Part shown: positions 6,436 to 41,559 of the stretch, one piece after another
Layout of the letters: the number at the start of each line of letters is the position of its first letter
Position numbering within the stretch: position 1 is the stretch's first letter
Source: an uncultured Gammaproteobacteria bacterium
GTDB lineage: Bacteria; Patescibacteriota; Patescibacteriia; Patescibacteriales; UBA12465
Length of the DNA: 42,831 nt
Direction: 5' to 3'
Assembly (NCBI GenBank): GCA_964351585.1
Contig: CAYGOK010000003.1
Location: 10,043 to 52,873, forward strand
Notes under the pieces: generated by a model
Databases searched by the model: none
What the model was told of the DNA's origin: nothing
What the model saw: the letters and a program-made list of their open reading frames with translations, nothing else
Program-made: the position numbers and the translations under genes

Positions 6436-9099
6436 TTATTGGCAGTTGCCATTTTCATCTAAATTATTAGAAGGAGATCCAAAACAACAAGATGGATTTT
6501 CCCAAGTAGCCTCACAGCTTGGACCTGAACTAGGTTTAAAACAATTTTGATAAACGTCTTTAACACCAGAGCCGGCCTGAGAAATATAAGAAAGTGATTC
6601 TGAAAATAAAGAATGTTTAATCTGGGCTACTGTTAAGTCAGTCACACCGTCTAAAGGAGAAACGTCCTTGTCCTCAGAGGTTATCCAATAACCCAGGGGA
6701 GAGGCAGCAGCACTCTTCAAATTAATGAATTTATGCTCCGTAGCAGTCTGACCATTATTCAAAATTTTGCTACCAGACCTAAGTGTACTAGACATCATTA
6801 AGGTATTAAAAGTAATTTCCACCGGATCAGTTAAAGCGGTAATGTCTGTTTGTCCATTGTTTGGCGTAATAGCGGTAATGCGTGGCGAAGATAGCTCTTT
6901 TTGGTCATTAACAAAGAAGGAGAAGCGGTAACTATCTTTATTATCAACTACACCATTATTCTCATTGAAATAAGAGATTGGCCCATCAGCCGCAGTATCA
7001 CGATTACCATCTAAAGAATTGAAGGCGGTATCAGTAATGCCACTCATCGTTGCAATGTTGGCCAGTGGATAGTTTCTCTGTCCTGCGTCTTGGCAGGTAC
7101 GATAACCGAGCGGGCTCATAACACAAGATCTATAAGGACTAAAGGCGGCGCAATCTTGATCGCTCGCACAAGTTTTTAAATCTGCAGCTTTAATTTCTAG
7201 AGCTAAGTTACTATTTGGCGGCAAACAATAAACCTTTTCACCGCAACCATTAATTCCACATTCATTATCAGAAATAAATTCAACTGTTTTGTAACCATTA
7301 GAAATCATAAACTGTCCATTTACATAACTGCCGACGCAGGAACCGCCGTCACATTTATAGGAAAGGCATTCGGAATTGATAGCACAAGCAGTGCCAGCTG
7401 ATTTGCCGCCATTAGCATTTACTAAACGAATATAAGAAGACACGTCGCTAGCGGAACCAGAAAGCGTAGCTGGGTTCATGGCCTCATTAAAGGTCACCTT
7501 GATGGCCGCGTTCATTGGCACATCTTTCTTATCATTAATAACATAGGTAATTCGTTGATCAGCGCCACCAGAAAACTGGGTTAGACCAAGAGCGCTACTA
7601 TTACTAGTGCTGAGGGCTAATCCATTAGCAGCGCTTCCGGCTACTTTAGCCGTCAATGAAACACGACTACCGGTACGAGTTACGTTCACATCGGGGTGGC
7701 CGCTTAACTTAGCCTGGATATCAGCCGCTTGATTATCCGCATTGCAGGTACCAGTCCGAACGATAATATTATTATTTTCACCAGTAGCAGCAAAGACATA
7801 TTTAACATTGCCAACCGTTAGAGTGTCGGCCAATTGTTCAGGGGTAATTTCTATTTCCCAGGAATTACCAGCAGCATGACTATCGGCTTTTAAGCTAAAA
7901 TATCCATCAAAAGTTACTCTATGGTCGGAAGTAAAATCAGCCACGCCCAATAAGGCATTAGTGTTACGATTAAATAGTTGGGCACGATTAGGCTCGTCCG
8001 CTGGGACGGAAACCATGAAACGATTTATTACGCCATGATAATCTAATGTTACCTCGGCTCCCGGGGTAACTCGATTTAACACAGCTGGTATATATACTCT
8101 TGGACAACCATTAACAAATATTTCTGCAGTTGCGTTAGCTGAGACAGTGCTCACCCCAATTTGATCTTGAAGATTATCAGGGCGAGGAAATATAGAACGA
8201 GCAACCACTTGTGGCGGGGTTAAATCTAAACGAGAACCAACTTCAAAACCCCAAACAAGCTCACTTGCGCTACAGGTTCTAAACATAGAGGAGCCATCTG
8301 CCTTCTTTAAATCTGAAGTTATTTTTACGGCATAATCAGTATTAGCCTCTGCTGAACCAAGATAGCTTAAAGGAGAAAATATCAGTGTTCTCTTATCGGC
8401 TGATATAGCTACAGCGACATCGGTAACATTAGAATTTGGGTTTGGACAGTTAACACCACAGGCATCATTTAATTCCTGCTTATATATTCTAATTGTCTTA
8501 GGATTAATTAAAGAGCAGGCGCCATTATCACAAGCGCAAGGACTGCCACCAGCATCCACACAAGCAGAAGCGGCATCAATTTCTTCTTTAAAAGTAACAA
8601 TTATAGAAGTATTTCTAGGTACATCACGCTGATTGCTTTCTGGGTAAACAGTTTGAACTGAGCAGGAGCCAATAGCCCCTAAACCAGCACTAAAATTATT
8701 TCCTGAATAAGCTCCAGGTTGATTAACGCCGTTACCAGAGATAGCACTCATTAATCTATCTAACAAGAAGGTGGTAATTGCCCAAGAAGATAAAATAATC
8801 ACTAAACCAATAACTGCGTTCTTAAGAATATTTTTTGCATTTCTAATTTTCTCCTCTTCGCCGCCAGAAGTCATCCACAAAAAGCCGGCATAGATTATTA
8901 AGCCAAGAGTAACGACACCAAGTAAGCTTAAGGCGACCTGAATAATACGCCCAATAATAGCTCGTGGGTCACTAGAAGACAAAGCGATTGTGCTTTCAAT
9001 CGGATCTAAACCGAAATCTTGCGCTAGAGAGATTTTAGCAGTCAGCAAAACTACTGATGCCAAAAAAAAGCCGAAAATTATCTTGAATCTTTTCAACAT
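6436..9099 (-). CDS. Large (887 aa) secreted surface protein: VirB2/TrbC-like pilin-type N-terminal anchor followed by several Ig-like (Big_5/SbsA-type) domains and Cys-knot-like segments
   Basis: ATG at 9099. N-terminus: MLKRFKIIFGFFLASVVLLTAKISLAQ|D...DPRAIIGRIIQVALSLLGVVTLGLIIYAGFLWMTSGGEEEKIRNAKNILKNAVIGLVIILSSWAITTFLLDRL. Repeated pattern 'P..g..dVp.n..I.vtF.e.m...t', e.g. VYPESNQRDVPRNTSIIVTFKEEID, NDKKDVPMNAAIKVTFNEAMNPATL and ITPNNGQTDITALTDPVEITFNTLM. About 30 Cys. The stop lies 9 nt before the next gene. Confidence 0.85.
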   Translation of the reverse strand: MLKRFKIIFGFFLASVVLLTAKISLAQDFGLDPIESTIALSSSDPRAIIGRIIQVALSLLGVVTLGLIIYAGFLWMTSGGEEEKIRNAKNILKNAVIGLVIILSSWAITTFLLDRLMSAISGNGVNQPGAYSGNNFSAGLGAIGSCSVQTVYPESNQRDVPRNTSIIVTFKEEIDAASACVDAGGSPCACDNGACSLINPKTIRIYKQELNDACGVNCPNPNSNVTDVAVAISADKRTLIFSPLSYLGSAEANTDYAVKITSDLKKADGSSMFRTCSASELVWGFEVGSRLDLTPPQVVARSIFPRPDNLQDQIGVSTVSANATAEIFVNGCPRVYIPAVLNRVTPGAEVTLDYHGVINRFMVSVPADEPNRAQLFNRNTNALLGVADFTSDHRVTFDGYFSLKADSHAAGNSWEIEITPEQLADTLTVGNVKYVFAATGENNNIIVRTGTCNADNQAADIQAKLSGHPDVNVTRTGSRVSLTAKVAGSAANGLALSTSNSSALGLTQFSGGADQRITYVINDKKDVPMNAAIKVTFNEAMNPATLSGSASDVSSYIRLVNANGGKSAGTACAINSECLSYKCDGGSCVGSYVNGQFMISNGYKTVEFISDNECGINGCGEKVYCLPPNSNLALEIKAADLKTCASDQDCAAFSPYRSCVMSPLGYRTCQDAGQRNYPLANIATMSGITDTAFNSLDGNRDTAADGPISYFNENNGVVDNKDSYRFSFFVNDQKELSSPRITAITPNNGQTDITALTDPVEITFNTLMMSSTLRSGSKILNNGQTATEHKFINLKSAAASPLGYWITSEDKDVSPLDGVTDLTVAQIKHSLFSESLSYISQAGSGVKDVYQNCFKPSSGPSCEATWENPSCCFGSPSNNLDENGNCQ
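8752..9099 (-). repeat. Copy 2 of the paralogous N-terminal pilin-like module
   Basis: Residues 1-116 of the 887-aa protein. See 6070-6426. Confidence 0.8.
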
Positions 9100-13062: not shown

Positions 13063-14121
13063 TTAGATTATCAACATAGCGTCACCATAACTAAAGAAGC
13101 GATAATTTTTAGAAATGGCCTCATGATAGGCTTGTAAAATATTATCTTTACCTGCTAAGGCACTAACTAACATTAGTAAAGTTGACTCAGGAAGATGAAA
13201 ATTAGTAATTAAAGCGTCTACTATTTTAAATTGATATCCAGGATAAATGAAGATATCTGTACGAAATAATAAATCACCTAATAATTTACTAGCGTTAAGA
13301 GAGCCATGCGGGCCAGCGGCCGCTTCTAGGGATCGACAGCTAGTTGTACCAACTGCAATTACTCTGCGACCAGCTTGCTTTGCTTGAATAATATCTTGCC
13401 AAACTTCGGCGGCTATTTCTACCGATTCGCTATGCATCTTATGATCAGTAATCAGCTCGGTTTTAACTGGTGAAAAAGTTCCCAGGCCAACATGCAAGGT
13501 TATAAACTTAATTTTTACGCCCTTGTCTTCAATCTTCTTAAGCAGGCTATCAGTAAAATGAAGACCAGCTGTTGGCGCAGCGACTGAGCCATCCTTACCA
13601 TTCGCCGCAAAAACTGTTTGATAACTAACTTTATCTTTTTTACCTCCACGCGGATTTTTAATATAAGGAGGCAGCGGCACTTCACCAATTTTATTTATCT
13701 CGTTAAAAAAGTCAGCGCCTGTTAAATTAAAGTTTACATTTCTGGTACCGTCTTGATTATCAGAGCCAATAATAGCAAATAGCTTAGTTGATAAATCAAC
13801 TATCTGGCCAGTCTTAAGTCGCCCCCTAACCAAACACTCCCAAGCATCATCGGCTATTTTCTGATGTAAAAAAATTTCGATACTACCACCGGAGTCACGC
13901 TTATGACCATGCAATCTGGCAGGAAAAACCTTCGAATTATTTAAAACCAAAATATCACCCGCTTGGAGATAGTCTACTATATCAAAAAAATGACGATGAT
14001 TAATTTCGCCATCATCTTTATATAATACCAGTAATCGAGAGCTATCTCGTGGTTGAGCTGGTTCTTGAGCAATTAATTTTGACGGTAAACTATAAGAAAA
14101 ATCTGAGGTCTTAAAATCCAT
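13063..14121 (-). CDS. queA: S-adenosylmethionine:tRNA ribosyltransferase-isomerase
   Basis: FSYSLPSKLIAQEPAQPRDSSRLLV, PLPPYI, YQTVFA and GSVAAPTAGLHFT are typical QueA motifs. It sits immediately downstream of ruvB, a common synteny. Confidence 0.9.
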   Translation of the reverse strand: MDFKTSDFSYSLPSKLIAQEPAQPRDSSRLLVLYKDDGEINHRHFFDIVDYLQAGDILVLNNSKVFPARLHGHKRDSGGSIEIFLHQKIADDAWECLVRGRLKTGQIVDLSTKLFAIIGSDNQDGTRNVNFNLTGADFFNEINKIGEVPLPPYIKNPRGGKKDKVSYQTVFAANGKDGSVAAPTAGLHFTDSLLKKIEDKGVKIKFITLHVGLGTFSPVKTELITDHKMHSESVEIAAEVWQDIIQAKQAGRRVIAVGTTSCRSLEAAAGPHGSLNASKLLGDLLFRTDIFIYPGYQFKIVDALITNFHLPESTLLMLVSALAGKDNILQAYHEAISKNYRFFSYGDAMLII

Positions 14122-14127
14122 ATCAAC

Positions 14128-15147
14128 TTAAACTAATTTATCTTGCCCCAGCGGTTTAATTCCTAAATGTTCTAAACCTAAATGAGTAATCACGCGACCA
14201 CGCGGCGAACGATCTAAAAATCCTAACTGCATCAAATATGGTTCATACATATTTTCAATCGTATCCGCTTCTTCTCCCGTTGACGCAGCTAGAGTATTTA
14301 ATCCCACTGGCCCGCCTTTAAATTTATGGGCAATGGTTTCTAGTAAGCGCCTATCAACATTATCAAGACCCAATGCATCTATTTCCAACATTTTAAAAGC
14401 CTCATCACAACCCATAGAATTTACTACGCCATTTCCTTTAACTGCACAGTAATCGCGCACTCTTTTTAATAACCGATTGGCAATGCGCGGCGTCCTTCGA
14501 CTACGTCCAGCAATTGCCTGCTTAGCATCAGCTTCTATTTCAACGCCCAAAATACTGGCACTGCGAAAAACAATACGCTCAATATCTGACTGTTCGTAAA
14601 AATTTAAATGATAAGATAAACCAAAACGATCACGAAGTGGCGCCGACAATAAAGAAGCCATCGTAGTCGCACCGACAATAGTAAATTTGGGAAGATCGAG
14701 TCGTAGAGTGCGCGCACTTGGACCCTTGCCCATAATAATGTCTAGCGCAAAATCTTCCATAGCTGGATATAAAATTTCCTCAACCGCCTTCGGCAAGCGA
14801 TGAATTTCATCGATAAATAAAATATCACCCGCCTCTAGATTAGTCAGAATAGCTGCCAAGTCGCCACTTTTTTCAATGGCCGGCCCAGAAGTAACACGAA
14901 TATTGGCTCCGGTTTCATTAGCAATGACATGAGCTAATGTTGTCTTTCCTAAACCCGGCGCACCATAAAGCAGAACGTGCTCAATGGGCTCGTTCCTCTT
15001 TTTAGCAGCCTCAATGGTGATTTCTAAGCTTTGCTTAATTTTTTCTTGTCCAATATACTCCTGGAACTGACGCGGTCGTAAAGAAAAATCTAATTTTTCA
15101 TCTTCCGGCGTATCTTCTGGAGTTATTAAGCGATCTTCTTCATTCAT
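14128..15147 (-). CDS. ruvB: Holliday junction branch migration helicase RuvB
   Basis: [16 protein letters not shown]..., Walker [10 protein letters not shown], Walker [11 protein letters not shown], and the C-terminal winged-helix segment PRGRV. I prefer ATG 15147 (MNEEDRL) to the track start at 15195, which would overlap the upstream gene by 38 nt. Confidence 0.9.
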
Positions 15148-15157
15148 ATTTTTATCA

Positions 15158-18145
15158 TTATACCTGACGAAATTCACAGATAGAATTAAAGTCACAATAC
15201 TTACACATCATTGATGGCGTTGGCGCAAAGTTACGATTCTTAATTGCGGTGATTTCTTCAATAATTCCTAATTTTAATTTATCAATTTCTTTTTCTGTCG
15301 CCACGAAGGAAATTTTATTACCGGTTTCTAAATAATAAAAACTAAGCTGTCCTACCTTCTCGCCTAAAAATTCCTCTAAGAAAACTTGGTATAAAATTAG
15401 CTGACGCTTCTCCTCAAATGTAAGTTTATCTTTTCCCTTACCCGTTTTATAGTCAACTACCTCTAAGCAACCATCGGCTAAGCGATCGACACGGTCAATT
15501 GTTCCCTTAATAATATTACCACCGATCTTAAAAGAGAATTTCTTTTCTAAAAAAATAGTTTCCGCAGGCGGAGCTGATTGATAGTTACTTAGAAAATCTT
15601 TTAAAGCCTTTTTACCGTTCTGATAATACTTATCTCGCTCTTCTTTGTTATTATAGCCATCGGCCTGCCAAAATTCTTCATACAAAGACAACAGTCTTTT
15701 TTCGCTTAAATCAATCTTTTTAACAGACTTTCCCTCCTCGTCAGAAAACAAGCTAGCCTGCAGCTTCTTGGCCTCAGCTAAAGTCGGTAATAAAAAATTA
15801 TATAAAGTATTATGCAAGACACGACCAAAAATAAGAGACGATTTATCAGTTGAGGCTGGAATTTTTAAAATAAAAGCGAATTTATACTGCAAGGGACAAG
15901 TAGAAAATGCCGCCAGCTGAGAAAAAGAAAACTTAGCCGGCAGCGGCAAGACAATATCTTTATCTTGATTAATCCTTTCTGCTTCTTCTAGTTCATTTAA
16001 ACGATGTAAGTCTTTCAAAAAAGCATTTTGCTTACTGAGCTGTGCCTCCTCGCTTACTAACTCTGGATTTATGCCCATTTCTAAAATAAAGCGAGATGGT
16101 TTTTTTTCTCTAGTGCCACCATAATCCTTAGCACCAGTTAAGTACAACTCTTCTTTGGCTCTAGTTGCTGCCACATAGAACAATCTACGCTCTTCCTCTA
16201 AATGCGCATCAACTGAAACTGTAATTTTTTCCTTAATAAGCGCCTCGGGAATAGAAATTTTTTCACTTCGGGCAATCGTGGGAAATTTTTTATCTACTAA
16301 ATTAACAATAAAGACGTATTTAAACTCTAAGCCCTTAGCACCGTGTACTGTCATAATTCTAACACTCTCATTGTCGGTAAAATCGAGCTTTAAAGAACCG
16401 GTTTCGCCCGCTTCAAGCTCCAAGTTAATTACTTCTAAAAAATCTTTCAATCGTAAATCAGAATTACCATCTTCCAATGTTTTTATTTTTTGATAAAGCT
16501 GATTTAAATAAGAAAATAATTCTAAATCTCTATCATGATCTAATTTTTCTAGCAGCCCAGAGTCATAGGCAAAGTGTAAGAAAATCTTGGTTGGCCTACT
16601 TTTAACAGCAAGTGCGGAGTGTGCCTCAATTAAACCAAGCAATTTAGTAATATTTTTTTCACTCTCTGGTGAGATGCTCTTAATTAAGCGCACATTTTTC
16701 AAGGCTTCATATAAAGACCAGACTTTACGAGCTGCCAACTTATTTATTTCTACTAGTTCAGAATGAGAAACCTTAAAGGTATCCATATTTAAAACTCGAA
16801 ACAAGGCAGAAGATTCATGGTAGTTATCCAACAATCTAAAATAAGCAAGAATATCAAGAATAATTGGCTTATAATAGAGACCGCGCCAAGACATAAAACG
16901 ATGAGGAATGCTTAGGCGACTCAACTCTTTAACATAAGCATCAGCCGTATCATTAGCCCTAACTAAAATTGCAAGGTCTAGCCAGCTAACTTCTTCACCT
17001 TGAGAAATTTTTTCTTCATAAATATCTTTAATGCGCTGACCAACAAAAGAGACCTCATCTTCTTGAGTGGGAAAATTAAAAAAGCGTACCGCTGGGGCAG
17101 AATATTTTTTAATACTCACTTCACCTTTAGCTACTAATTTTTTATCAAGACCAAGTTTAACCTCTAAACGATTTGGATTATTATGTTTAATAAAATCATG
17201 AGACCTGTCTAAAATTTCTTGGCGAGAGCGATAATTCTCGGTTAATATTATTTCCTTAGCCCCGGGATAATCAGATTTAAACTGCATGATATTAGAGATA
17301 GAAGCGCCGCGAAATTTGTAAATTGCTTGATCGTCGTCACCAACTACCAATAAGTTATTTTGTGGCGCCGCTAATAGTTTTACTAATTCATACTGAGCTA
17401 AATTAGTATCCTGAAACTCATCAACCATGATAAATTTAAATTTACCGCGATAGTATTTCAAAATATTTGGCCTATCTTTAAAAAGTTTAATAGCATAAAC
17501 AATTAAATCACCAAAATCGAGGTAATTATTTTCAATCAGTAACTGATTGTACGTATTATAAGCACCGGCCAACTCTTTAATCCGAACCGCCTCCAGCCCG
17601 TCATCATCTTCATCATCAGCATGCTCTGAAACTTCTGAATTTTCCGCGTGCTTTATATACTCAAAAGCTGAAATATCTTCATCCTTCAAGCGAGAAAAAT
17701 GCTTAAGTAATTCGGAAATAAATTTAGTCGGATTTCCTAATGGTCGATAATAATCCAGTTGAAAGCGTGCTAAATTTCTTTTAATCATTACCCATTGATC
17801 GGTTGCTGATAATAACTTAAACCCGGGATTAAGGCCTATTTCTAAAGCATGGTCGCGCAAAATACGTTCGCAGAAACCATGAAAAGTATTAATCCATAAA
17901 TCCGTGTAACCATAAGGTAAAATAATATCAGCCCGCTCTTCCATTTCACCAGCTGCTTTTTCGGTAAAAGTTAAAAGCAGAACTTCGTCAGGAGAAACCT
18001 TTTTAACAGTTAAAAGATGTGCCAAGCGATTTATTAAAACCGTGGTCTTACCAGTACCAGCACCAGCCACAATTAAAAGCGGGCCATTCTCATGAGTAAC
18101 GGCTGCTTTTTGTGCGCTATTTAATTTTGCTAGTGATTCAGACAT
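15158..18145 (-). CDS. UvrD/PcrA-family SF1 helicase fused to a C-terminal PD-(D/E)xK, Cas4/AddB-like 4-Cys nuclease domain
   Basis: Helicase: [64 protein letters not shown] and [11 protein letters not shown]. Nuclease: [27 protein letters not shown]...[13 protein letters not shown] and [10 protein letters not shown] (C...CxxCxxxxxC). Confidence 0.85.
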
Positions 18146-20656: not shown

Positions 20657-21373
20657 ATGAAGTATGCCATTAAGGATCGTAATACCATCCTAACCGACGG
20701 CCATTTTTATAAAATTTCCCGCGTCAAAGATTTACCAGATGACGAAAAGCCACGCGAAAAACTTATAGAAAACGGTGCGGGCGCCCTTAGTTCAACTGAG
20801 CTCTTAGCTATAATTCTTGGCGTCGGGACAAAAAAAGAAGAAGTTTTTTCCATGGCAAATCGACTTTTGCGAGAATACGGCGAAAAAGGAATTGCTTATC
20901 AAAAAGATCCTCAAATTATTCAGAAAGATTTAGGCCTACCAATTGCCAAAGCTTGCCAGATAGTCGCCTGCTTTGAGCTGGGTCGCCGCTTCTATCAAAA
21001 GAAGCCAGGCGGATCTATTACCATTAGAACTGCTAAGCAAGCCTACGAATATCTTAAGGATATGCGCACTCTTAATAAAGAGCAGTTCCGCGGATTATAT
21101 CTTAATACTCATTACCAACTAATCCATGACGAAGTAATTTCTATTGGAACTCTTGACTCCGCTATTGTTCAGCCGCGTGAAGTTTTTCGCCCCGCCTTAG
21201 AATACTCAGCAGCCGCTCTTATTATTGCTCACAATCATCCTTCTGGAGTAGTTAAGGCAACGAAAGCTGATGCTGAAATTACTAATAAACTAGTAGAAGC
21301 TGGGAAAATATTAGATATTGAAGTTCTAGACCACCTCATTATCGGACAAAATAAATTTTTAAGCATTATCTAA
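20657..21373 (+). CDS. radC: RadC-family (JAB/MPN domain) protein
   Basis: N-terminal HhH-like segment ELLAIILGVGTKKEEVFSMANRLL. JAMM motif segment AAALIIAHNHPSG and LDHLII. Confidence 0.85.
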   Translation: MKYAIKDRNTILTDGHFYKISRVKDLPDDEKPREKLIENGAGALSSTELLAIILGVGTKKEEVFSMANRLLREYGEKGIAYQKDPQIIQKDLGLPIAKACQIVACFELGRRFYQKKPGGSITIRTAKQAYEYLKDMRTLNKEQFRGLYLNTHYQLIHDEVISIGTLDSAIVQPREVFRPALEYSAAALIIAHNHPSGVVKATKADAEITNKLVEAGKILDIEVLDHLIIGQNKFLSII

Positions 21374-35460: not shown

Positions 35461-35518
35461 AATGATAATTTTTGCAAGCGCCAAGGGCGCCAAATCCTTG
35501 GTAATAATAATATAATTA

Positions 35519-35527
35519 TGTTATAAT
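35519..35527 (+). promoter_or_regulatory. Candidate extended -10 (TGTTATAAT) for the membrane-protein/tandem-ATPase operon
   Basis: An exact TGnTATAAT 75 nt upstream of ATG 35602, in the divergent region shared with argS. Confidence 0.4.
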
Positions 35528-35601: not shown

Positions 35602-36576
35602 ATGTTTTCTTATCGCGCACTCTTACAACAAGCCTGGAAAATTACCTGGGATTACAAAACTCTTTGGCTTTTTGGAGTTTTTGCCTCAATCGCGGCCGCT
35701 AGTGGCTCCTTTGAGTATCAAATTTTGGTTAATAATTTCCAAAATGGAGTTCTAGAAAGCTCTTACTATCACTTAGGCATGTTTTTATTAATTTTAAAAA
35801 CTATTGGTGGCTTTATTCTTGGCCTAATTAATCTTTTTTCCTACAATATCCTTGATATTATCAACACGCTAACTATCCTAATTATTACAGGGACAATTAT
35901 TGCTTCTTTTGTCTGGTTGTCTATCACTTCTCAAGGAGCTTTAGTGTTAAACGCAAAAAAATTAATTGCAACTAAGAAAAAGTCCGAAAACATTGATATT
36001 AAAGAAAGTTTTGCGCAGGGCAATAAATATTTCTGGCAAATTCTTGGATTTAACGTTTTAGCAAAGTTTGCTATTGCCGTAATTCTATTCTTAATCAGCC
36101 TACCTCTTGTCTTCTTAGCCAGCAAAGCCTCTGATTTACTATCCTCTTTATATACTTTAGCTTTTATTATTTTTATACCATTAGCGATTGCTGCTTCCTT
36201 AATCTTAAAATATGCAATTGCCTACTTAGTATTAGAGGATGAAAATTTTTGCTCAGCTTTTAAAAAATCTTGGCGCCTATTTATCAAAAACTGGTTAGTT
36301 AGTGTAGAAATGGGCATTATTCTGTTCTTGATTAGCTTCTTGGTTGGCATCGTTCTACTTGCACTAATGTCTGTCTTCATCTTCCCTTACTTCATTTTTG
36401 CGCTAGACTACGGAGTGGGCTGGTTAATGATAACCTTAGCTCTTATTACTTTCTTCTTGCTACTGATTAGCAGCGCGATTTTATCAACTTTCCAAATTTC
36501 CGCCTGGACTGGCTTATTCTTAGATTTAAAGAACAATCGTGGCTTAGCCAAGCTTGAGAGACTATTTAAAAAATAA
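35602..36576 (+). CDS. Polytopic membrane protein (about 7 TM helices), unknown function; first gene of the operon
   Basis: Hydrophobic segments throughout. N-terminus: MFSYRALLQQAWKITWDYKTLWLFGVF. No GspF/PilC motifs. The stop lies 8 nt before the ATPase gene. Confidence 0.7.
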   Translation: MFSYRALLQQAWKITWDYKTLWLFGVFASIAAASGSFEYQILVNNFQNGVLESSYYHLGMFLLILKTIGGFILGLINLFSYNILDIINTLTILIITGTIIASFVWLSITSQGALVLNAKKLIATKKKSENIDIKESFAQGNKYFWQILGFNVLAKFAIAVILFLISLPLVFLASKASDLLSSLYTLAFIIFIPLAIAASLILKYAIAYLVLEDENFCSAFKKSWRLFIKNWLVSVEMGIILFLISFLVGIVLLALMSVFIFPYFIFALDYGVGWLMITLALITFFLLLISSAILSTFQISAWTGLFLDLKNNRGLAKLERLFKK

Positions 36577-36584
36577 CCTTTATT

Positions 36585-39500
36585 ATGAATCCAGTTGATT
36601 CAATAGAAAATCTGATAAACCCTACAGGCGACGAACAAAGCGTCGCCGGTATTTTTGCTAAAAAGCAAAGGGAGATAAAACAGAAAGAAGCAGAAAGACA
36701 AACTCAGCGCGATGCCTCTGATGTTGCTTTAGAATATATAAATCTATTCGGATTTCCCATTAGCCCCGAGGCACTAGGTCTAATCAGTGAAGAAAGAGCC
36801 AAAGAACTGAAGGCGGTCTGTTTTTTTTATGATGGACACAATTTACGTCTTGCCTGCTTAGCTCCTACTGAGGAAGTCTTAGCCGAACTAAAAAACTTAT
36901 CAGACAAGCACTTTGCTAACGCTAAGCTATATTTAATTTCTGAAAATAGCTTAAGTTACGCTCTAGACGCCTATCGCGCTGTTCCAAAAGTAAAAAAATA
37001 TGATAGCGGAGTAGAAATTAGTAAAGTCCAGCTACAAAAATTTAAAGACGACATTACTAGCTACAAAAGCTTAAATGATAAGATTAACGAAGTTAATATT
37101 ACCGATGTAATCACTTTAATGCTCGCAACCGCGATTAAGGTGGGAGCAAGTGATATCCATATTGAAGCCGAGGAAAGAGGCGTGGTAATTCGCATCCGTA
37201 TCGATGGCGTTCTCCAGGAAGCAGCAGTTATTGCCCGTGATAAGTGGCAAAAAATTATTTCTCGTCTAAAAATTCTTTCTAAGGTAAAGCTTAACATCGA
37301 GAACAAACCGCAAGACGGTCGCTATACAATTTTTCTTCAGGATCATAAAATCGATGTCCGCTGTTCATTTTTACCGACCGCCTTTGGCGAGAGCGTAGTC
37401 ATGCGCTTACTTGATTCTCATACTTCCGCTCTTAATTTAAGCAAGCTTGGAATACGAGCAGAAGTTATGCCGATTTTGCAAAAAGAAATTTCAAAGCCAA
37501 ACGGTTTAATTTTAACAACTGGCCCAACCGGTAGCGGTAAAACTACTACGCTATACTCTGTCTTAAGCCAGCTCAACAAACCTGGTAACAAGATTATCAC
37601 TTTAGAAGAGCCCATTGAATATCAACTTCCTGGCATCAATCAAAGCCAAGTCGACGCTAAGCATGGTTTTAATTTTTCCGAAGGCTTGCGTTCTATTTTA
37701 CGACAAGATCCAAACATCGTTATGGTTGGAGAAATTCGTGATTTAGAAACAGCCGAGATTGCTATTCAAGCTGCTCTAACAGGACACTTAGTGCTGTCCA
37801 CTTTACACACCAACGATGCTTCTGGTGTTATTCCTCGCATGATTGATATTGGAGTTAAGCCTTATTTTCTAGCCCCAGCGGTTAATGCTGTCATTGGTCA
37901 GCGTTTAGTTAGGCAATTATGCACTCACTGTCGACAAGATAAAACGATTACCCCAGATGAAGAAGAATTAATTTACAAGATTCTGGCTGTTATTTCTCCT
38001 AAGGCCGGCATTAACGTACCATCAGCGCTTCCTAAAATTTTTCAATCAGGTGCTGGCTGTGAACACTGTAACTTCACCGGCTACAGTGGTCGCTCTGGTA
38101 TTTTTGAAATTTTTACAATTAGCGATAATATCCGCCAATTAACGATTGATAATGCCCCTTCGTTTAAAATTTTACAACAGGCTATCGAAAACGGCATGAT
38201 AACTATGCTACAAGATGGCGTCTTAAAAGTTTTAGAAGGTGAAACCAGTCTTGAAGAAATTTATCGTGTCATTGGCAATTTCGACTATGTAAATGAGCTC
38301 TATGATATTGTTATTTCTCAAACTATTGGCCGCGGTATTAGAATAAAAGAAGAGGAGATGAATGAAATTACTGAAATCGGCAAAGACATTTTAAATATCG
38401 GTGACCGCGCTAATCAAATCCCGAGCTCAAAATTAGTTGCCCTCACTATGGGATTAGCTGTTTTACGTGATGCTGGCGATGTTCACATTGAACCAACTGA
38501 AAGTGATGTAAAAATCCGCTTCCGTATCGATGGTATTATGCATGATGTTTTCTCAGTACCTAAAACTAGTTACTTGCCATTACTCTCAGAAATAAAAATT
38601 TTGGCCGGTACGCCAACTAACGTAAAGAAGGCAACTTTTGATGGTCGTTTTAGTATTTATTTACCACCAAATAGAAAAATCGATTGTCGTTTATCAATTA
38701 TTGCCGGCGGTTATGGCGAAACAATCGTTGTCCGCTTACTCTCTTCCTCGGCTGCTAGCTTAGAGCTTCCAAAGTTAGGCGTTTCTTCGGTTGCCCTTGA
38801 ATCAATGGGTCGCGCCATGAAGAAAAATCGTGGCATTATTATTACTACTGGTCCAACCGGTAGCGGTAAAACCACGACGCTCTACAGTATGCTCAACCAA
38901 TTAAATCATCCTGATGTAAAAATTATTACTGTCGAAGATCCAATTGAATATCAGCTCGCTGGCGTTATGCAAACCCAAATCGATGAAGCAAACGGCTACA
39001 CTTTTGCCTCAGCGATGCGTTCCTTATTACGTCAAAACCCTAATATCATGATGATTGGTGAAATCCGTGATAATGAAACCGCTAAGATTGCGATTGAGGC
39101 CGCGATGACTGGTCATTTAGTATTATCCACTATTCATGCCAATTCTGCTGCAGGAGCGATTTTCCGTTTTGCTGGTCTTGGTGTAGAAAGACAAATGCTT
39201 GCTAACTCAATGGAGTTTGCTATTGGCCAGCGCCTAGCTAGACGTCTCTGTCCTCATTGTAAACAGACTACTGAAATATCGTCTGAGAATTTAACTCGTG
39301 TTAAAGAAATTCTAAGCGGCATTAAAAACCCAGCAGTTTCAATTCCAGAGCAAATGACATTTTATAAGAGTGTCGGTTGTGAGCAGTGCGGACAAATTGG
39401 CTACAAAGGTAGAATCGGTTTATATGAAACTATTGAGTTAACACCTAACATCCGCAAACTAATGCAATCGGAAGGCATTACCGAATATGAAATTGAACAA

Positions 39501-39599
39501 ACTGCTATAAACGAAGGCATGGTAACAATGCTACAAGATGGTATTTTAAAAGCCTTGGCCGGAGAGACTTCTCTAGAAGAAATTTTCCGTGTCTCTTAA
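36585..39599 (+). CDS. Tandem (duplicated) GspE/PilB-family secretion ATPase: N-terminal T2SSE_N-like domain plus two complete N2-CTD ATPase modules in one 1004-aa chain
   Basis: Module 1 (about aa 172-562): Walker A GPTGSGKTTT (37521-37544 encode GPTGSGKT), Asp box ITLEEPIEY, Walker B IVMVGEIRD, His box GHLVLSTLHTNDA, and Cys pairs CTHC...CEHC. Module 2 (about aa 612-1004): GPTGSGKTTT (38850-38873 encode GPTGSGKT), ITVEDPIEY, IMMIGEIRD, GHLVLSTIHANSA and CPHC...CEQC. The two are joined by a linker of about 50 aa with no stop or frameshift. Confidence 0.85.
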   Translation: MNPVDSIENLINPTGDEQSVAGIFAKKQREIKQKEAERQTQRDASDVALEYINLFGFPISPEALGLISEERAKELKAVCFFYDGHNLRLACLAPTEEVLAELKNLSDKHFANAKLYLISENSLSYALDAYRAVPKVKKYDSGVEISKVQLQKFKDDITSYKSLNDKINEVNITDVITLMLATAIKVGASDIHIEAEERGVVIRIRIDGVLQEAAVIARDKWQKIISRLKILSKVKLNIENKPQDGRYTIFLQDHKIDVRCSFLPTAFGESVVMRLLDSHTSALNLSKLGIRAEVMPILQKEISKPNGLILTTGPTGSGKTTTLYSVLSQLNKPGNKIITLEEPIEYQLPGINQSQVDAKHGFNFSEGLRSILRQDPNIVMVGEIRDLETAEIAIQAALTGHLVLSTLHTNDASGVIPRMIDIGVKPYFLAPAVNAVIGQRLVRQLCTHCRQDKTITPDEEELIYKILAVISPKAGINVPSALPKIFQSGAGCEHCNFTGYSGRSGIFEIFTISDNIRQLTIDNAPSFKILQQAIENGMITMLQDGVLKVLEGETSLEEIYRVIGNFDYVNELYDIVISQTIGRGIRIKEEEMNEITEIGKDILNIGDRANQIPSSKLVALTMGLAVLRDAGDVHIEPTESDVKIRFRIDGIMHDVFSVPKTSYLPLLSEIKILAGTPTNVKKATFDGRFSIYLPPNRKIDCRLSIIAGGYGETIVVRLLSSSAASLELPKLGVSSVALESMGRAMKKNRGIIITTGPTGSGKTTTLYSMLNQLNHPDVKIITVEDPIEYQLAGVMQTQIDEANGYTFASAMRSLLRQNPNIMMIGEIRDNETAKIAIEAAMTGHLVLSTIHANSAAGAIFRFAGLGVERQMLANSMEFAIGQRLARRLCPHCKQTTEISSENLTRVKEILSGIKNPAVSIPEQMTFYKSVGCEQCGQIGYKGRIGLYETIELTPNIRKLMQSEGITEYEIEQTAINEGMVTMLQDGILKALAGETSLEEIFRVS

Positions 39600-39616: not shown

Positions 39617-40192
39617 ATGATTGATAAGAAATTTCTAGAAAACCTAAAAGAAGATTACGCTGCTAACGAAAAAGAACGTCGCCAAATTATTAGTGCCTCT
39701 AACGGAATTTTATTTGAAGCGAAAAAAATTATTTTTGCCATTCAGCGCCATGATTTAAAAACAGCAGCTGAAAAATTAACGACTCTCGAAACTGAATTTA
39801 GAAGTCTAGAGAAACGCTTCGGGCTTGACCGTTTGCGCAAAGAAGGCGCATACAAAGCGGCAGCTGAAGAATATCTTGAAGGCAAAACTCTGTTTTTGGT
39901 AATTAAGAAAAAACCAATTACTAAGATTGATGATATATCTTTCGACTATGAAGCCTATTTGGGTGGCATCTGTGATTTAATTGGCGAGCTGGTGCGATAT
40001 GCTACCAATCAAGCAGCTAAAGGAAAATTTTCTGAAGTTGCCAAAATTAAAAAAGCGGCTGATGATATCATGGTGCAATTAGTAGATTTTGACATGACCG
40101 GCTATCTGCGCACAAAATACGACCAAGCACGTGGTCACTTGAGAAAACTCGAACAAATGGCTTACGAAATACGCTTGAAAACTGGAAAATAA
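39617..40192 (+). CDS. Translin-family-like protein (tentative)
   Basis: All-helical 191-aa protein. YLGGICDLIGELVRYA resembles the conserved translin 'Y..g..D..GEL.R' segment. Recognised by eye only. Confidence 0.5.
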   Translation: MIDKKFLENLKEDYAANEKERRQIISASNGILFEAKKIIFAIQRHDLKTAAEKLTTLETEFRSLEKRFGLDRLRKEGAYKAAAEEYLEGKTLFLVIKKKPITKIDDISFDYEAYLGGICDLIGELVRYATNQAAKGKFSEVAKIKKAADDIMVQLVDFDMTGYLRTKYDQARGHLRKLEQMAYEIRLKTGK

Positions 40193-40194
40193 CT

Positions 40195-40689
40195 ATGCAC
40201 CTAGCAATCATTTCCGACCTGCACGACAATCTAATTAATCTGAAACAGTGCCTTGATTGGTGCAAAGAAAGTAAAATCCAAAAGATAATTTGTTGTGGTG
40301 ATGTTGGCAATCAAGAAACTATTTTATATCTCTCTGCTAATTTTAGCGGTGAGATTTTTTTAGTTGAAGGCAACGCCGAAACCTATCAATTAGAAGATTT
40401 AAAACCCTTAACTAATATAAAGTTTTTTGGACTACTGGGTAAAATAGAAACAGAAAATTTAAATATAGGTTTCTGTCATAAAGAAAAAGATATTCCCGGT
40501 TTACTCATAGACAACTCGCAGCTCGACTTTATATTTTATGGACACAGCCACAAGCCTTGGTTAGAAAAAATGGGTAAAACAATGATGGCAAACCCAGGGA
40601 ATCTTGCCGGAATCTTTTTTGCTCCAACTTTTGCTGTGCTTAATACAGAAAATAAACATCTTGAGTTAAAACTACTATCCAACCTATGA
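40195..40689 (+). CDS. Metallophosphoesterase, YfcE/MJ0936-like
   Basis: MHLAIISDLHDN, CCGDVG, EGNAE and YGHSHKPW. Confidence 0.8.
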   Translation: MHLAIISDLHDNLINLKQCLDWCKESKIQKIICCGDVGNQETILYLSANFSGEIFLVEGNAETYQLEDLKPLTNIKFFGLLGKIETENLNIGFCHKEKDIPGLLIDNSQLDFIFYGHSHKPWLEKMGKTMMANPGNLAGIFFAPTFAVLNTENKHLELKLLSNL

Positions 40690-41489: not shown

Positions 41490-41504
41490 AGAAATTACAA
41501 AAAC

Positions 41505-41535
41505 AAAAACCCCAGTTTTAACACTGGGGTTTTTG
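41505..41535. terminator. Bidirectional rho-independent terminator between convergent suhB-like gene and uvrA
   Basis: aaaaaCCCCAGT-tttaac-ACTGGGGttttt. Confidence 0.7.
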
Positions 41536-41559
41536 TATAATAAAACTATAGCTTGTATT

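What the first reader, a model, noticed from the sequence alone, without database searches (positions are those of the whole stretch)
36585..39599. Covalently duplicated PilB/GspE secretion ATPase (two full motor modules in one polypeptide)
Typical T2SS/T4P assembly ATPases are about 400-600 aa with one N2-CTD motor and work as homohexamers. This ORF is 1004 aa. It holds one T2SSE_N-like N-domain followed by two complete motors.

Each motor has intact Walker A, Asp box, Walker B, His box and the tetra-Cys (CxxC...CxxC) zinc motif. Each even ends with the same helix, (M/V)TMLQDG(V/I)LK.L.GETSLEEI(Y/F)RV. The halves are identical at only about half their positions by eye. The fusion is therefore old and under selection in both halves, and it is not a recent assembly duplication.

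Inference: the active ring could be a trimer of fused dimers with built-in asymmetry, or two stacked rings. No pilin, PilC/GspF platform, PilM/N/O or prepilin peptidase gene is present in the window.
Basis: partly seen in the sequence, partly recalled or inferred. Interest (0 to 1): 0.75.

Follow-up and report, generated by a model that had tools for sequence, protein, structure and literature searches.

The report
Natural double-motor PilB-type ATPase in CPR bacteria
This gene really does encode a pilus/secretion motor ATPase with two complete, apparently active motor units in one chain; the design is conserved across many ultra-small (CPR) bacteria, has not been studied, and probably builds its six-part ring from three chains instead of six.

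Summary
**Observation: confirmed.** Window 36585-39599(+) is one 1004-aa ORF. It has an N1 (MshEN/T2SSE_N) domain followed by two PilB/GspE-type N2+CTD motor modules. The modules are 43% identical (E 6e-125), and each has Walker A, Asp box, Walker B, His box and a tetra-Cys site.

**Not an artefact.**
- At least 120 protein clusters, all 1003-1027 aa, share the architecture.
- At least 80 species-level Falkowbacteria/Patescibacteria genomes carry the same uninterrupted ORF.
- Catalytic motifs are near-invariant in both halves, and dN/dS is about 0.01-0.07 in both.
- The inter-module linker helix is the most conserved segment.

**Origin.** It is the positional ortholog of a single-module "orphan" PilB-like gene of CPR bacteria. 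That gene sits in a housekeeping slot next to a DHH-family gene, PolA and TsaE. Deep tandem lineages lie next to ruvB or yebC-ruvC. No pilus gene lies within 10 kb in any of 95 sources. Three other proteins show separate duplications, or homogenised halves.

**Mechanism (inferred, about 0.5).** Three chains form an alternating pseudo-hexameric ring that drives type IV filament assembly. Stacked rings or a non-pilus role are not excluded. AlphaFold did not resolve the inter-module geometry.

**Novelty.** No paper in the searched library describes it. I class it as a new variant of a known kind, of moderate to high interest.

The parts
36585..39599 (+). Whole ORF, 1004 aa plus stop: tandem PilB/GspE-family ATPase
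36729..36977 (+). N1 domain (MshEN/T2SSE_N, residues 49-131). There is only one copy per chain. By inspection of the sequence it contains no RLG tripeptide, so I could not find the RLGxx... c-di-GMP-binding motif as I recall it; I did not run this as a formal motif search.
   Evidence: PF05157, E 8.8e-6, 26.1 bits against cut-off 23.1; one search aligns residues 50-563 with Geobacter PilB 83-584
37008..38270 (+). Motor module 1 (residues 142-562): pre-N2 segment, N2 domain (about 170-290) and CTD (291-562). This is the more conservative, canonical-PilB-like copy.
   Evidence: (123 of 132 single-module relatives are closer to module 1)
37521..37544 (+). Walker A of module 1 (GPTGSGKT, residues 313-320)
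   Evidence: conservation 0.94-1.00 across 120 clusters
37716..37742 (+). Walker B of module 1 (IVMVGEIRD, residues 378-386)
37920..38069 (+). Tetra-Cys zinc site of module 1 (C446, C449, C492, C495)
   Evidence: all four Cys invariant
38271..38417 (+). Inter-module linker (residues 563-611). It contains the most conserved segment of the protein (563-583, VIGNFDYVNELYDIVISQTIG, predicted helix 567-581) and a segment homologous to the pre-N2 segment of module 1. It is probably a remnant of the last N1 helix.
   Evidence: 0.92 conservation; hhalign aligns 122-200 with 565-642, probability 97%
38418..39596 (+). Motor module 2 (residues 612-1004): N2' (612-733) and CTD' (734-1004). It is PilB/GspE-type rather than PilT-type, and is the more diverged copy.
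   Evidence: PilB 417 bits, GspE 424 bits, PilT 156 bits
38850..38873 (+). Walker A of module 2 (GPTGSGKT, residues 756-763)
   Evidence: 1.00 at every position
39045..39071 (+). Walker B of module 2 (IMMIGEIRD, residues 821-829)
39249..39389 (+). Tetra-Cys zinc site of module 2 (C889, C892, C932, C935)
35602..36576 (+). Upstream co-directional gene, 8 bp before the ATPase: a 324-aa protein that looks polytopic and hydrophobic by eye (weak DUF7544 match). It lies immediately upstream in 82 of 82 loci of this clade, but not in distant tandem lineages.
39617..40689 (+). Downstream co-directional genes: a translin-family protein (39617-40192) and a YfcE-type phosphodiesterase (40195-40689). The translin-like gene is found downstream in all 79 loci with enough flank; the phosphodiesterase in 78 of 82.
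35498..35527 (+). Best promoter-like site (TTGGTA-18-TATAAT with TG), upstream of the membrane-protein gene. It is a possible start of a five-gene unit that would end at the terminator-like hairpin 41503-41536.
   Evidence: consensus matches only

Best explanation
**Shown**
- The gene encodes a PilB/GspE-family (type IV filament assembly-type) ATPase.
- The motor unit (pre-N2 segment, N2 domain, CTD with zinc site; about 441 aa) is present twice in one chain, behind a single N1 domain.
- Both modules keep every catalytic motif and both are under strong purifying selection.
- The architecture is vertically conserved in Falkowbacteria and related Patescibacteria.
- It arose by internal duplication of a single-module 'orphan' PilB-like gene that CPR bacteria keep in a housekeeping locus.

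**Inferred**
- Three chains assemble into one pseudo-hexameric ring in which module 1 and module 2 alternate (A-B-A-B-A-B).
- All six ATP sites fire, but the ring carries only three N1 domains and has at most three-fold true symmetry.
- The ring docks on the PilC-type platform and powers polymerisation of pilins, for attachment and/or DNA uptake. PilC is itself an internally duplicated protein reported to act as a trimer that presents six cytoplasmic domains.
- The covalent link fixes the 1:1 alternation and lets the two modules specialise, module 1 staying canonical and module 2 diverging.
For: **Architecture and motifs**
- Domain architecture and motif positions.
- The closest solved structures are PilB hexamers. 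Geobacter PilB 5TSG/6OLJ match by sequence at E 1e-103; Foldseek gives TM 0.85-0.88 to 5TSH, 5ZFR and 5OIU.
- Both modules are PilB/GspE-type and not PilT-type.

**Conservation and selection**
- 120 clusters of 1003-1027 aa.
- At least 80 species genomes.
- Uninterrupted ORF in 83 of 83 sources.
- Motif conservation of 0.94-1.00 in both halves, with equal domain conservation (0.86 against 0.85 for the CTDs).
- dN/dS about 0.01-0.07 in both halves.
- The N2 arginines (R203/R205/R246 and R645/R647/R688) are invariant.

**Origin by internal duplication**
- The single-module proteins P0140 and P0143 sit in the same PolA-TsaE-(BacA)|DHH-like-ATPase slot as the tandem proteins P0122, P0124 and P0126.
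- The DHH neighbours are homologous, E 1e-44 to 1e-81.
- The repeat unit is defined by hhalign.

**Ring model (indirect support)**
- In PilB hexamers the N2 domain of one protomer rests on the CTD of its neighbour.
- PilC/PulF is proposed to be a trimer whose two cytoplasmic domains per chain face the six ATPase protomers (review PMC11656802).
- The linker is long (49 residues, three predicted helices) and highly conserved.
- T4P machinery is widespread in CPR bacteria (PMC6744442; PMC12206443).
Against: - There is no direct evidence on oligomeric state. AlphaFold gave pTM 0.49 for the full chain and pLDDT 62 / pTM 0.48 for CTD1-linker-N2'.
- No pilin, PilC, PilM or PilT gene, and no second T2SSE gene, lies within 10 kb in any of 95 sources. 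A partner machine is therefore assumed, not shown.
- Each module alone is below the NCBIfam equivalog cut-offs for PilB (480 and 417 bits against 676) and GspE (485 and 424 against 630).
- The gene neighbourhoods are DNA-metabolism and housekeeping, not pilus.
- To my knowledge, natural precedents for tandem ring ATPases (KaiC, p97/ClpB, EccC) stack their modules rather than alternating them within one ring.
Confidence: 0.5

Rival explanations
1. Stacked double ring. Six chains assemble so that the six module-1 units form one hexameric ring and the six module-2 units form a second, coaxial ring. This resembles KaiC, p97/NSF/ClpB or the tandem FtsK-like domains of EccC. The module-1 ring, which carries the N1 domains, would face the membrane platform.
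For: Both modules are complete and self-sufficient N2+CTD units. The 49-residue, partly helical linker could bridge two rings. To my knowledge, every well-studied natural tandem ring ATPase stacks its modules. AlphaFold did not predict a confident intra-chain CTD1:N2' packing unit.
Against: A distal ring could not touch the platform protein, so its mechanical output would have no obvious target. PilB-type rings have two functionally distinct faces (review PMC11656802). The AlphaFold results are uninformative rather than negative.
Confidence: 0.2
2. Not a pilus motor. The orphan PilB-like ATPase of CPR bacteria, single or tandem, has been recruited to another task linked to nucleic-acid handling. 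Examples would be energising DNA uptake or processing together with its DHH, translin or phosphodiesterase neighbours and the ruv genes. It would act independently of a classical pilus cluster.
For: The gene never lies next to pilus genes. Méheust et al. report that CPR T4P genes co-localise in numerous genomes. There is conserved pairing with a DHH-family (distant NrnA-like) gene across single and tandem forms. ruvB or yebC-ruvC lies 6 bp to 2.5 kb downstream in 5 of 5 deep tandem loci that have downstream sequence. PolA or PolX lies upstream. In the window clade, a translin-like gene and a YfcE phosphodiesterase lie downstream.
Against: All sequence and fold features are those of filament-assembly ATPases, including the N1 domain that binds PilM/GspL-type partners in known systems and the zinc site. 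To my knowledge, orphan pilB genes away from pilC occur in bona fide pilus systems, for example Thermus pilF. In small CPR genomes nearly every neighbour is a housekeeping gene, and the whole region is syntenic, so adjacency may be only inherited gene order.
Confidence: 0.12
3. Functionally asymmetric ring. One module is the working motor, and the other binds nucleotide mainly as a structural or regulatory subunit, as with the alpha subunit in F1 alpha3-beta3.
For: Module 2 is the more diverged copy: 123 of 132 single-module relatives are closer to module 1. Only module 1 carries N1. In other lineages one module does decay. P0134 module 1 has lost the Walker A lysine and the Asp box, and P0123 module 2 has lost its zinc cysteines.
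Against: In the window's clade every catalytic residue of both modules is invariant or nearly so across 120 clusters, and dN/dS is equally low in both. Walker A lysine, Walker B glutamate and the His box are intact in both modules of 13 of the 14 deep tandem representatives.
Confidence: 0.15
4. Artefact: two adjacent genes fused by a sequencing, assembly or frameshift error, or a recent assembly duplication.
For: None found.
Against: The same uninterrupted ORF occurs in 83 of 83 sources of the clade, from independent NCBI, JGI, ENA and Logan assemblies including closed chromosomes. The halves are only 43% identical. The junction is the most conserved part of the protein. There is no conserved internal Met at the junction (consensus).
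Confidence: 0.01

Closest known systems
PilB, the type IVa pilus extension ATPase (Geobacter metallireducens/sulfurreducens PilB: PDB 5TSG, 5TSH, 6OLJ, 5ZFR)
   Same: N1 + N2 + CTD organisation, Walker A, Asp box, Walker B, His box and tetra-Cys zinc site. Residues 50-563 align end to end with PilB 83-584 (E 1e-103). Foldseek gives TM about 0.87 and 45% identity.
   Different: A second complete N2+CTD module follows in the same chain. Each module alone scores below the TIGR02538 cut-off. The gene is not next to pilC, pilT or pilM. A homohexamer of identical protomers is impossible by construction.
GspE/EpsE, the type II secretion ATPase (PDB 1P9R, 4KSR, 4PHT)
   Same: Same fold and motifs. The TIGR02533 match is as strong as the PilB match.
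   Different: The host organisms are CPR bacteria; Méheust et al. found no PilQ secretin and infer a non-Gram-negative envelope (PMC6744442). I know of no T2SS in them, and no Gsp genes lie nearby. Each module is below the equivalog cut-off, and the motor is duplicated.
Thermus thermophilus PilF (PDB 5IT5, 5OIU, 6F8L) and other long PilB variants
   Same: An unusually long PilB-family protein encoded, to my knowledge, away from the pilus genes. It shares the same motor fold.
   Different: PilF is long because it repeats the N-terminal GSPII/N1 domains in front of one motor. Here the motor itself is repeated behind one N1 domain.
Two-extension-motor systems (PilB plus TfpB in Acinetobacter baylyi, PMC8213720); possible hetero-oligomers are discussed in PMC11656802
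   Same: Two diverged PilB-type motors cooperate in one organism. The review raises the question of whether they form mixed rings.
   Different: There the paralogs are separate genes and chains. Here the two paralogous motors are covalently joined at a fixed 1:1 ratio.
Tandem ring ATPases (KaiC, p97/NSF/ClpB, EccC of type VII secretion) and alternating hetero-hexamers (F1/V1 alpha3-beta3). This comparison rests on my own knowledge and was not tested here.
   Same: Internal duplication of a P-loop motor within one chain, or alternation of two diverged paralogs around a six-fold ring.
   Different: These belong to different ATPase superfamilies or folds. Those tandem proteins stack their modules. 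To my knowledge, no member of the PilT/VirB11/GspE family has been described with two motors in one chain.
PilC/GspF platform protein (internal duplication of the T2SSF domain; trimer model for PulF, PMC10790770 as cited in PMC11656802)
   Same: Three chains of two repeats each, giving six domains. This is the same arithmetic as proposed here for the ATPase.
   Different: It is a different, membrane-embedded protein. It is a presumed partner rather than a relative, and its presence in these genomes was not verified.

Membership tests
GspE/PulE-PilB family of type IV filament assembly ATPases (Pfam PF00437 T2SSE with N1 domain) | N2 + CTD RecA-like motor with Walker A, Asp box, Walker B and His box | tested here: met
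   Present twice
GspE/PulE-PilB family of type IV filament assembly ATPases (Pfam PF00437 T2SSE with N1 domain) | Tetra-cysteine zinc site in the CTD. From my own knowledge, this distinguishes PilB/GspE from PilT. | tested here: met
   C446/449/492/495 and C889/892/932/935, all invariant in 120 clusters
GspE/PulE-PilB family of type IV filament assembly ATPases (Pfam PF00437 T2SSE with N1 domain) | N-terminal N1 (GSPII/MshEN-type) domain | tested here: met
   PF05157 at residues 49-131, 26.1 bits against cut-off 23.1; one copy only
Type IVa pilus PilB (NCBIfam TIGR02538, equivalog) | Score of a single motor-bearing protein at or above the curated cut-off (675.65 bits) | tested here: not met
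   N1+module 1 scores 480.3 bits and module 2 scores 417.4 bits. The whole protein passes (886.8) only because two modules are summed.
Type II secretion GspE (NCBIfam TIGR02533, equivalog) | Score of a single motor-bearing protein at or above the curated cut-off (630.25 bits) | tested here: not met
   485.5 and 424.2 bits for the two parts
Type IV filament assembly ATPase as a system component | Encoded with, or in the same genome as, a PilC/GspF platform, prepilin peptidase and pilins | tested here: inconclusive
   None within 10 kb in 95 sources. The whole-genome content of tandem-bearing genomes could not be read. The contig-length matching trick with a Parcubacteria PilB gave no hit. The literature reports T4P genes in most CPR classes.
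Type IV filament assembly ATPase as a system component | Homohexameric ring of identical protomers; ATPase activity | not testable with these tools
   Needs biochemistry or multimer modelling. Monomer AlphaFold runs did not define the inter-module geometry.
PilT/PilU retraction ATPases (TIGR01420) | Score at or above 319.1 bits; no zinc site; no N1 domain | tested here: not met
   184.5 and 156.2 bits. Both modules carry the zinc site.
Tandem stacked-ring ATPases (KaiC/p97/EccC type) | Two P-loop motor modules in one polypeptide | tested here: met
Tandem stacked-ring ATPases (KaiC/p97/EccC type) | Modules form two coaxial rings | not testable with these tools
   No multimer prediction or coordinates were available.

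The most novel reading that the evidence does not exclude
The tandem protein is not a conventional pilus extension motor. It would be a PilB-derived double motor that CPR bacteria keep in a DNA-metabolism neighbourhood (DHH/NrnA-like, PolA/PolX, ruvB, yebC-ruvC, translin-like, YfcE phosphodiesterase). It would energise uptake or handling of foreign DNA, the nucleotide supply of these auxotrophic cells. It would do so as an obligate three-chain ring whose two alternating, diverged modules engage two different partners. A milder version is better supported, at about 0.3. In that version it is the pilus motor, and its 3 x 2 design co-evolved with the 3 x 2 design of the PilC platform, each module serving one of the two PilC cytoplasmic domains.
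Probability: 0.12. Interest if true: 0.8.

Novelty: new variant of a known kind. Interest (0 to 1): 0.6.

Why it matters
**Relevance to the mechanism debate.** PilB/GspE/PilT-family motors are described as rings of six identical protomers. Their mechanism (C2 sequential versus C3 or C6 states) is still debated (PMC6858323, PMC11656802). A natural protein that hard-wires two diverged motors into one chain shows three things:
- A ring with at most three-fold true symmetry and only three N1 domains is viable, and selectable over long evolutionary time.
- It offers a ready-made system in which alternate sites of the ring can be mutated independently, one gene and two Walker sites. This is the experiment that resolved subunit coordination in other ring ATPases.
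- It parallels the internally duplicated, reportedly trimeric PilC platform, suggesting a testable 3:3 motor-platform match.

**Relevance to CPR biology.** It is a conserved, unexplored feature of Falkowbacteria and Parcubacteria, organisms whose episymbiotic lifestyle is thought to depend on pili and DNA scavenging.

**Limits.** It remains a member of a well-known enzyme family, and its cellular role is inferred, not shown.

Tried and rejected
- **tRNA and Rfam scans of the window** found nothing.
- **PADLOC scan** gave only generic P-loop hits, so there is no defence-system link.
- **Global NJ tree** of 169 modules was unresolved at saturated distances, and fragments mislabelled as singles broke the clades. 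I replaced it with pairwise orthology tests and a smaller bootstrapped tree. Its deep nodes remain weak, so 'one origin for the main CPR tandem family' is supported mainly by the shared linker motif and synteny.
- **AlphaFold of the full chain** folded the domains but gave pTM 0.49. The CTD1-linker-N2' sub-construct was worse, at pLDDT 62. Neither supports or refutes any ring model. No coordinates were available for geometric checks.
- **Co-occurrence with a canonical PilB or PilC in the same genome** stayed unresolved. I tried matching contig lengths of hits to a Parcubacteria single PilB. I searched the supplement of PMC12206443 for Falkowbacteria, which only listed genomes. I also scanned 1.77 Mb of held loci for prepilin motifs and extra T2SSE genes. 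All were negative.
- **The upstream membrane protein as a dedicated partner** was considered and rejected. It is conserved only within the syntenic Falkowbacteria clade and is replaced by a DHH-like gene elsewhere.
- **c-di-GMP control through the N1 (MshEN) domain** was considered. By inspection the sequence has no RLG tripeptide, so I could not find the motif as I recall it. I did not run a formal motif search.
- **P0134** (T2SSF + 2 x T2SSE) turned out to be a singleton within a family of about 615 aa with a T2SSF domain plus one T2SSE. It is therefore weak evidence for recurrence.
- **Literature searches** for tandem, fused or duplicated PilB/GspE found nothing.


Full report
**1. The observation**

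Window 36585-39599(+) is a single ATG-initiated ORF of 1004 aa. Pfam finds one MshEN/T2SSE_N domain (residues 49-131) and two T2SSE (PF00437) stretches. NCBIfam gives two-stretch matches to GspE and PilB.

A self-comparison aligns residues 142-562 with 584-1003 at 43% identity and 65% similarity with 5 gaps, E 6e-125. Walker A (313, 756), Walker B (378, 821), His box (399, 842), Asp box (340, 783) and two CxxC pairs per module are all present.

The residue before TMLQDG is I/V rather than M/V, and identity between the halves is 43% rather than about one half.

The window holds no pilin, PilC, PilM/N/O, PilD or PilT gene. Its content identifies a Patescibacteria (CPR) genome. It carries aminoacyl-tRNA synthetases, GyrA, RuvB, RelA/SpoT, UvrA and giant surface proteins with a PF18895 N-terminus. 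The identical protein comes from an NCBI contig of 63 kb.

**2. Real and conserved, not an artefact**

- The best 120 clusters from a search of 5.8 billion proteins are all 1003-1027 aa, 69-100% identical, with 99-100% coverage. They come from independent NCBI, JGI, ENA and Logan assemblies, including contigs of 0.8-1.0 Mb.
- A scan of GTDB species genomes found 178 relatives. The 80 kept are all full-length, at 62-94% identity. They are titled Falkowbacteria, Patescibacteria or Parcubacteria. Many bulk-submitted MAGs carry an evidently wrong 'uncultured Gammaproteobacteria' title.
- All 83 sources of this clade have one uninterrupted ORF of at least 1004 aa.
- Across the 120 clusters the two CTDs are equally conserved (0.86 and 0.85), and every catalytic motif is 0.94-1.00 conserved in both modules. 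All eight cysteines are invariant. The most conserved segment of the whole protein is the junction, residues 563-583 (0.92).
- dN/dS against the closest orthologs is about 0.01-0.07 in every domain of both modules. dS is saturated, so these are rough values.

**3. Anatomy**

Residues 50-563 align end to end with Geobacter PilB (E 1e-103). The AlphaFold model (pLDDT 76) matches PilB, PilF and EpsE chains at TM 0.85-0.88.

Scored separately, both parts are PilB/GspE-type: 480 and 417 bits for PilB, 485 and 424 for GspE, against 185 and 156 for PilT. Both also fall below the curated equivalog cut-offs, as does the single-module ortholog P0140. This is therefore a divergent CPR branch of the GspE/PulE family, not a certified T4aP PilB or T2SS GspE.

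A profile-profile alignment extends the repeat colinearly from residue 122 to 565. The chain is thus an N1 core (1-121) plus two units of about 441 aa. The conserved 'linker helix' (predicted helix 567-581) is probably the remnant of the last N1 helix. There is no conserved internal start codon at the junction.

**4. Wider distribution and origin**

An exhaustive HMMER search of 1.84 billion cluster representatives gave 57,118 family hits (15,898 at E 1e-30 or better). Only 14 representatives among the 150 listed had two complete modules, at 978-1047 aa and 36-62% identity. Those that carry a source name are from the Parcubacteria group or Paceibacterota. A further search surfaced about 20 more clusters of about 1000 aa.

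In these deep members both P-loops, both Walker B glutamates and both His boxes are intact. There are two exceptions: module 1 of P0134 has lost its lysine, and module 2 of P0123 has lost its zinc site.

Within the window's clade and its nearest outgroups, modules are orthologous position by position (module 1 to module 1 at 0.53-0.80, against 0.44-0.46 across modules). Module 2 is the more diverged copy: 123 of 132 single-module relatives are closer to module 1.

A bootstrapped NJ tree groups the module 2 copies of the main CPR family, with weak deep support. They also share the linker motif G-D-x-x-Y-[IV]-x-x-[LM]-Y.

Three proteins (P0128, P0130, P0134) have halves that are each other's sisters with 100% bootstrap, at 53%, 71% and 43% identity. 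P0130 and P0134 nest among single-module proteins. The architecture has therefore arisen again, or the halves were homogenised by gene conversion. P0134 is a singleton inside a family with a T2SSF domain plus one T2SSE.

**5. Genomic context**

In the window's clade the order is ArgRS(-), then membrane protein, tandem ATPase, translin-like and YfcE phosphodiesterase. The membrane protein is present upstream in 82 of 82 loci, and the translin-like gene downstream in 79 of 79. The whole region is syntenic, so this may be inherited order. A promoter-like site precedes the membrane-protein gene, and a hairpin follows the IMPase gene.

Distant tandem members sit in a different, mutually conserved slot:
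- PolA(-) and TsaE(-), then a DHH-family gene followed by the ATPase (P0122, P0124, P0126).
- ruvB, or yebC-ruvC, lies 6 bp to 2.5 kb downstream in all five loci that have downstream sequence.

The closest single-module relatives, P0140 and P0143 (50-51% identical to module 1), occupy the same slot: S20-HolA-PolA-TsaE-BacA, then a DHH-like gene and the ATPase. The DHH neighbours are homologous. P0139 also has TsaE nearby.

The tandem gene is therefore an internal duplication of a CPR 'orphan' PilB-like gene. No second T2SSE gene and no prepilin motif occurs in the 1.77 Mb of loci held.

Whether the same genomes carry a pilus cluster could not be determined. Published surveys find PilB/T, PilC, PilM/N/O, PilD and pilins in most CPR classes, often co-localised (PMC6744442; PMC12206443).

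**6. Mechanism**

*Shown:* two complete, conserved, apparently catalytic PilB-type motors and one N1 domain per chain.

*Inferred:*
- In PilB hexamers the N2 domain of each protomer rests on the CTD of its neighbour, and all six protomers face the platform protein. The most economical assembly is therefore three chains forming one alternating pseudo-hexamer.
- Such a ring would carry three N1 domains. It would match the proposed PilC/PulF trimer, which offers two cytoplasmic domains per chain (PMC11656802).
- The fixed alternation would allow the two modules to specialise.
- Stacked rings, a non-pilus DNA-linked role, and a partly regulatory module remain open.
- Two AlphaFold runs did not define the inter-module geometry.

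**7. Comparison and novelty**

The closest known proteins are PilB and GspE (same fold and motifs). Thermus PilF is long through N1 repeats, not motor repeats. The PilB and TfpB pair are separate paralogous motors.

I know of no described PilT/VirB11/GspE-family protein with two motors in one chain. Six full-text searches found none, and the 2024 PilB review does not mention one. Databases name these proteins only 'GspE/PulE family protein' or 'PilB'.

I class the finding as a new variant of a known kind. It is real, widespread in a poorly studied lineage and mechanistically suggestive, but its cellular role and oligomeric state are untested.

Noticed in passing
L083-L089; window 13063-15195: In deep CPR lineages the tandem ATPase gene lies directly upstream of ruvB or yebC-ruvC, at 6 bp to 2.5 kb, in 5 of 5 loci with downstream sequence. 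The single-module orthologs have a TPR gene there instead. In the window, RuvB and QueA are 21 kb away. This could be inherited gene order or a DNA-related function.
   Followed up: partly
L083:8823-9974, L084:8710-9879, L088:5437-6594, L091:7736-8872, L094:8746-9900: A DHH-family protein of about 380 aa (distant NrnA-like, 52.6 bits) sits immediately upstream of the orphan PilB-like gene in both single-module and tandem lineages. Four of these proteins were compared and are homologous (E 1e-44 to 1e-81); the L094 gene was not compared. Some Falkowbacteria-clade loci have a homolog 7-10 kb upstream.
   Followed up: partly
L087:10001-13144 (P0134) and relatives P0306, P0310, P0334 and others: A non-CPR organism, with sulfatase, CBM9, ECF-sigma and BatA genes nearby, encodes a 1047-aa protein. 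It has an N-terminal T2SSF (PilC/GspF cytoplasmic) domain, a T2SSE module with a dead P-loop (GSGTT), and an intact T2SSE module. It is a singleton within a family of about 615 aa with a T2SSF domain plus one T2SSE, seen for example in Candidatus Brocadiia. This platform-domain-to-ATPase fusion may deserve its own look.
   Followed up: partly
window 39617-40192: A translin-family protein (PF01997, E 3e-17; its best NCBIfam matches are PRK14562-type models named 'haloacid dehalogenase superfamily protein') is encoded 17 bp after the ATPase. It is conserved there in 79 of 79 loci. To my knowledge translin is unusual in bacteria.
   Followed up: partly
window 640-6426 and 6436-9099 (- strand): Two giant proteins (1928 and 887 aa) have an N-terminal PF18895 'T4SS_pilin' domain followed by TIG, Big_5 and fn3 repeats. 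They look like surface or adhesin proteins. They are unrelated to type IV pilins.
   Followed up: no
loci L003-L082: About half of the GTDB genome records that carry this Patescibacteria gene are titled 'uncultured Gammaproteobacteria bacterium' (bulk co-assembly MAGs), and one is titled Saccharimonadales (L010). These titles are evidently placeholder or wrong taxonomy.
   Followed up: no
window about 35500: There is a strand switch. All listed genes from about 10.9 kb to 35.5 kb are on the - strand except one (RadC-like, 20657-21373). Five genes from 35.6 to 41.5 kb are on the + strand. GC skew changes from about -0.2 to about 0 at the same place.
   Followed up: no
P0128 (L085) and P0130: These are tandem ATPases whose two halves are 53% and 71% identical and are sisters with 100% bootstrap. 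They represent recent independent duplications or gene conversion between halves. P0128 keeps the ruvB synteny, which favours conversion.
   Followed up: partly
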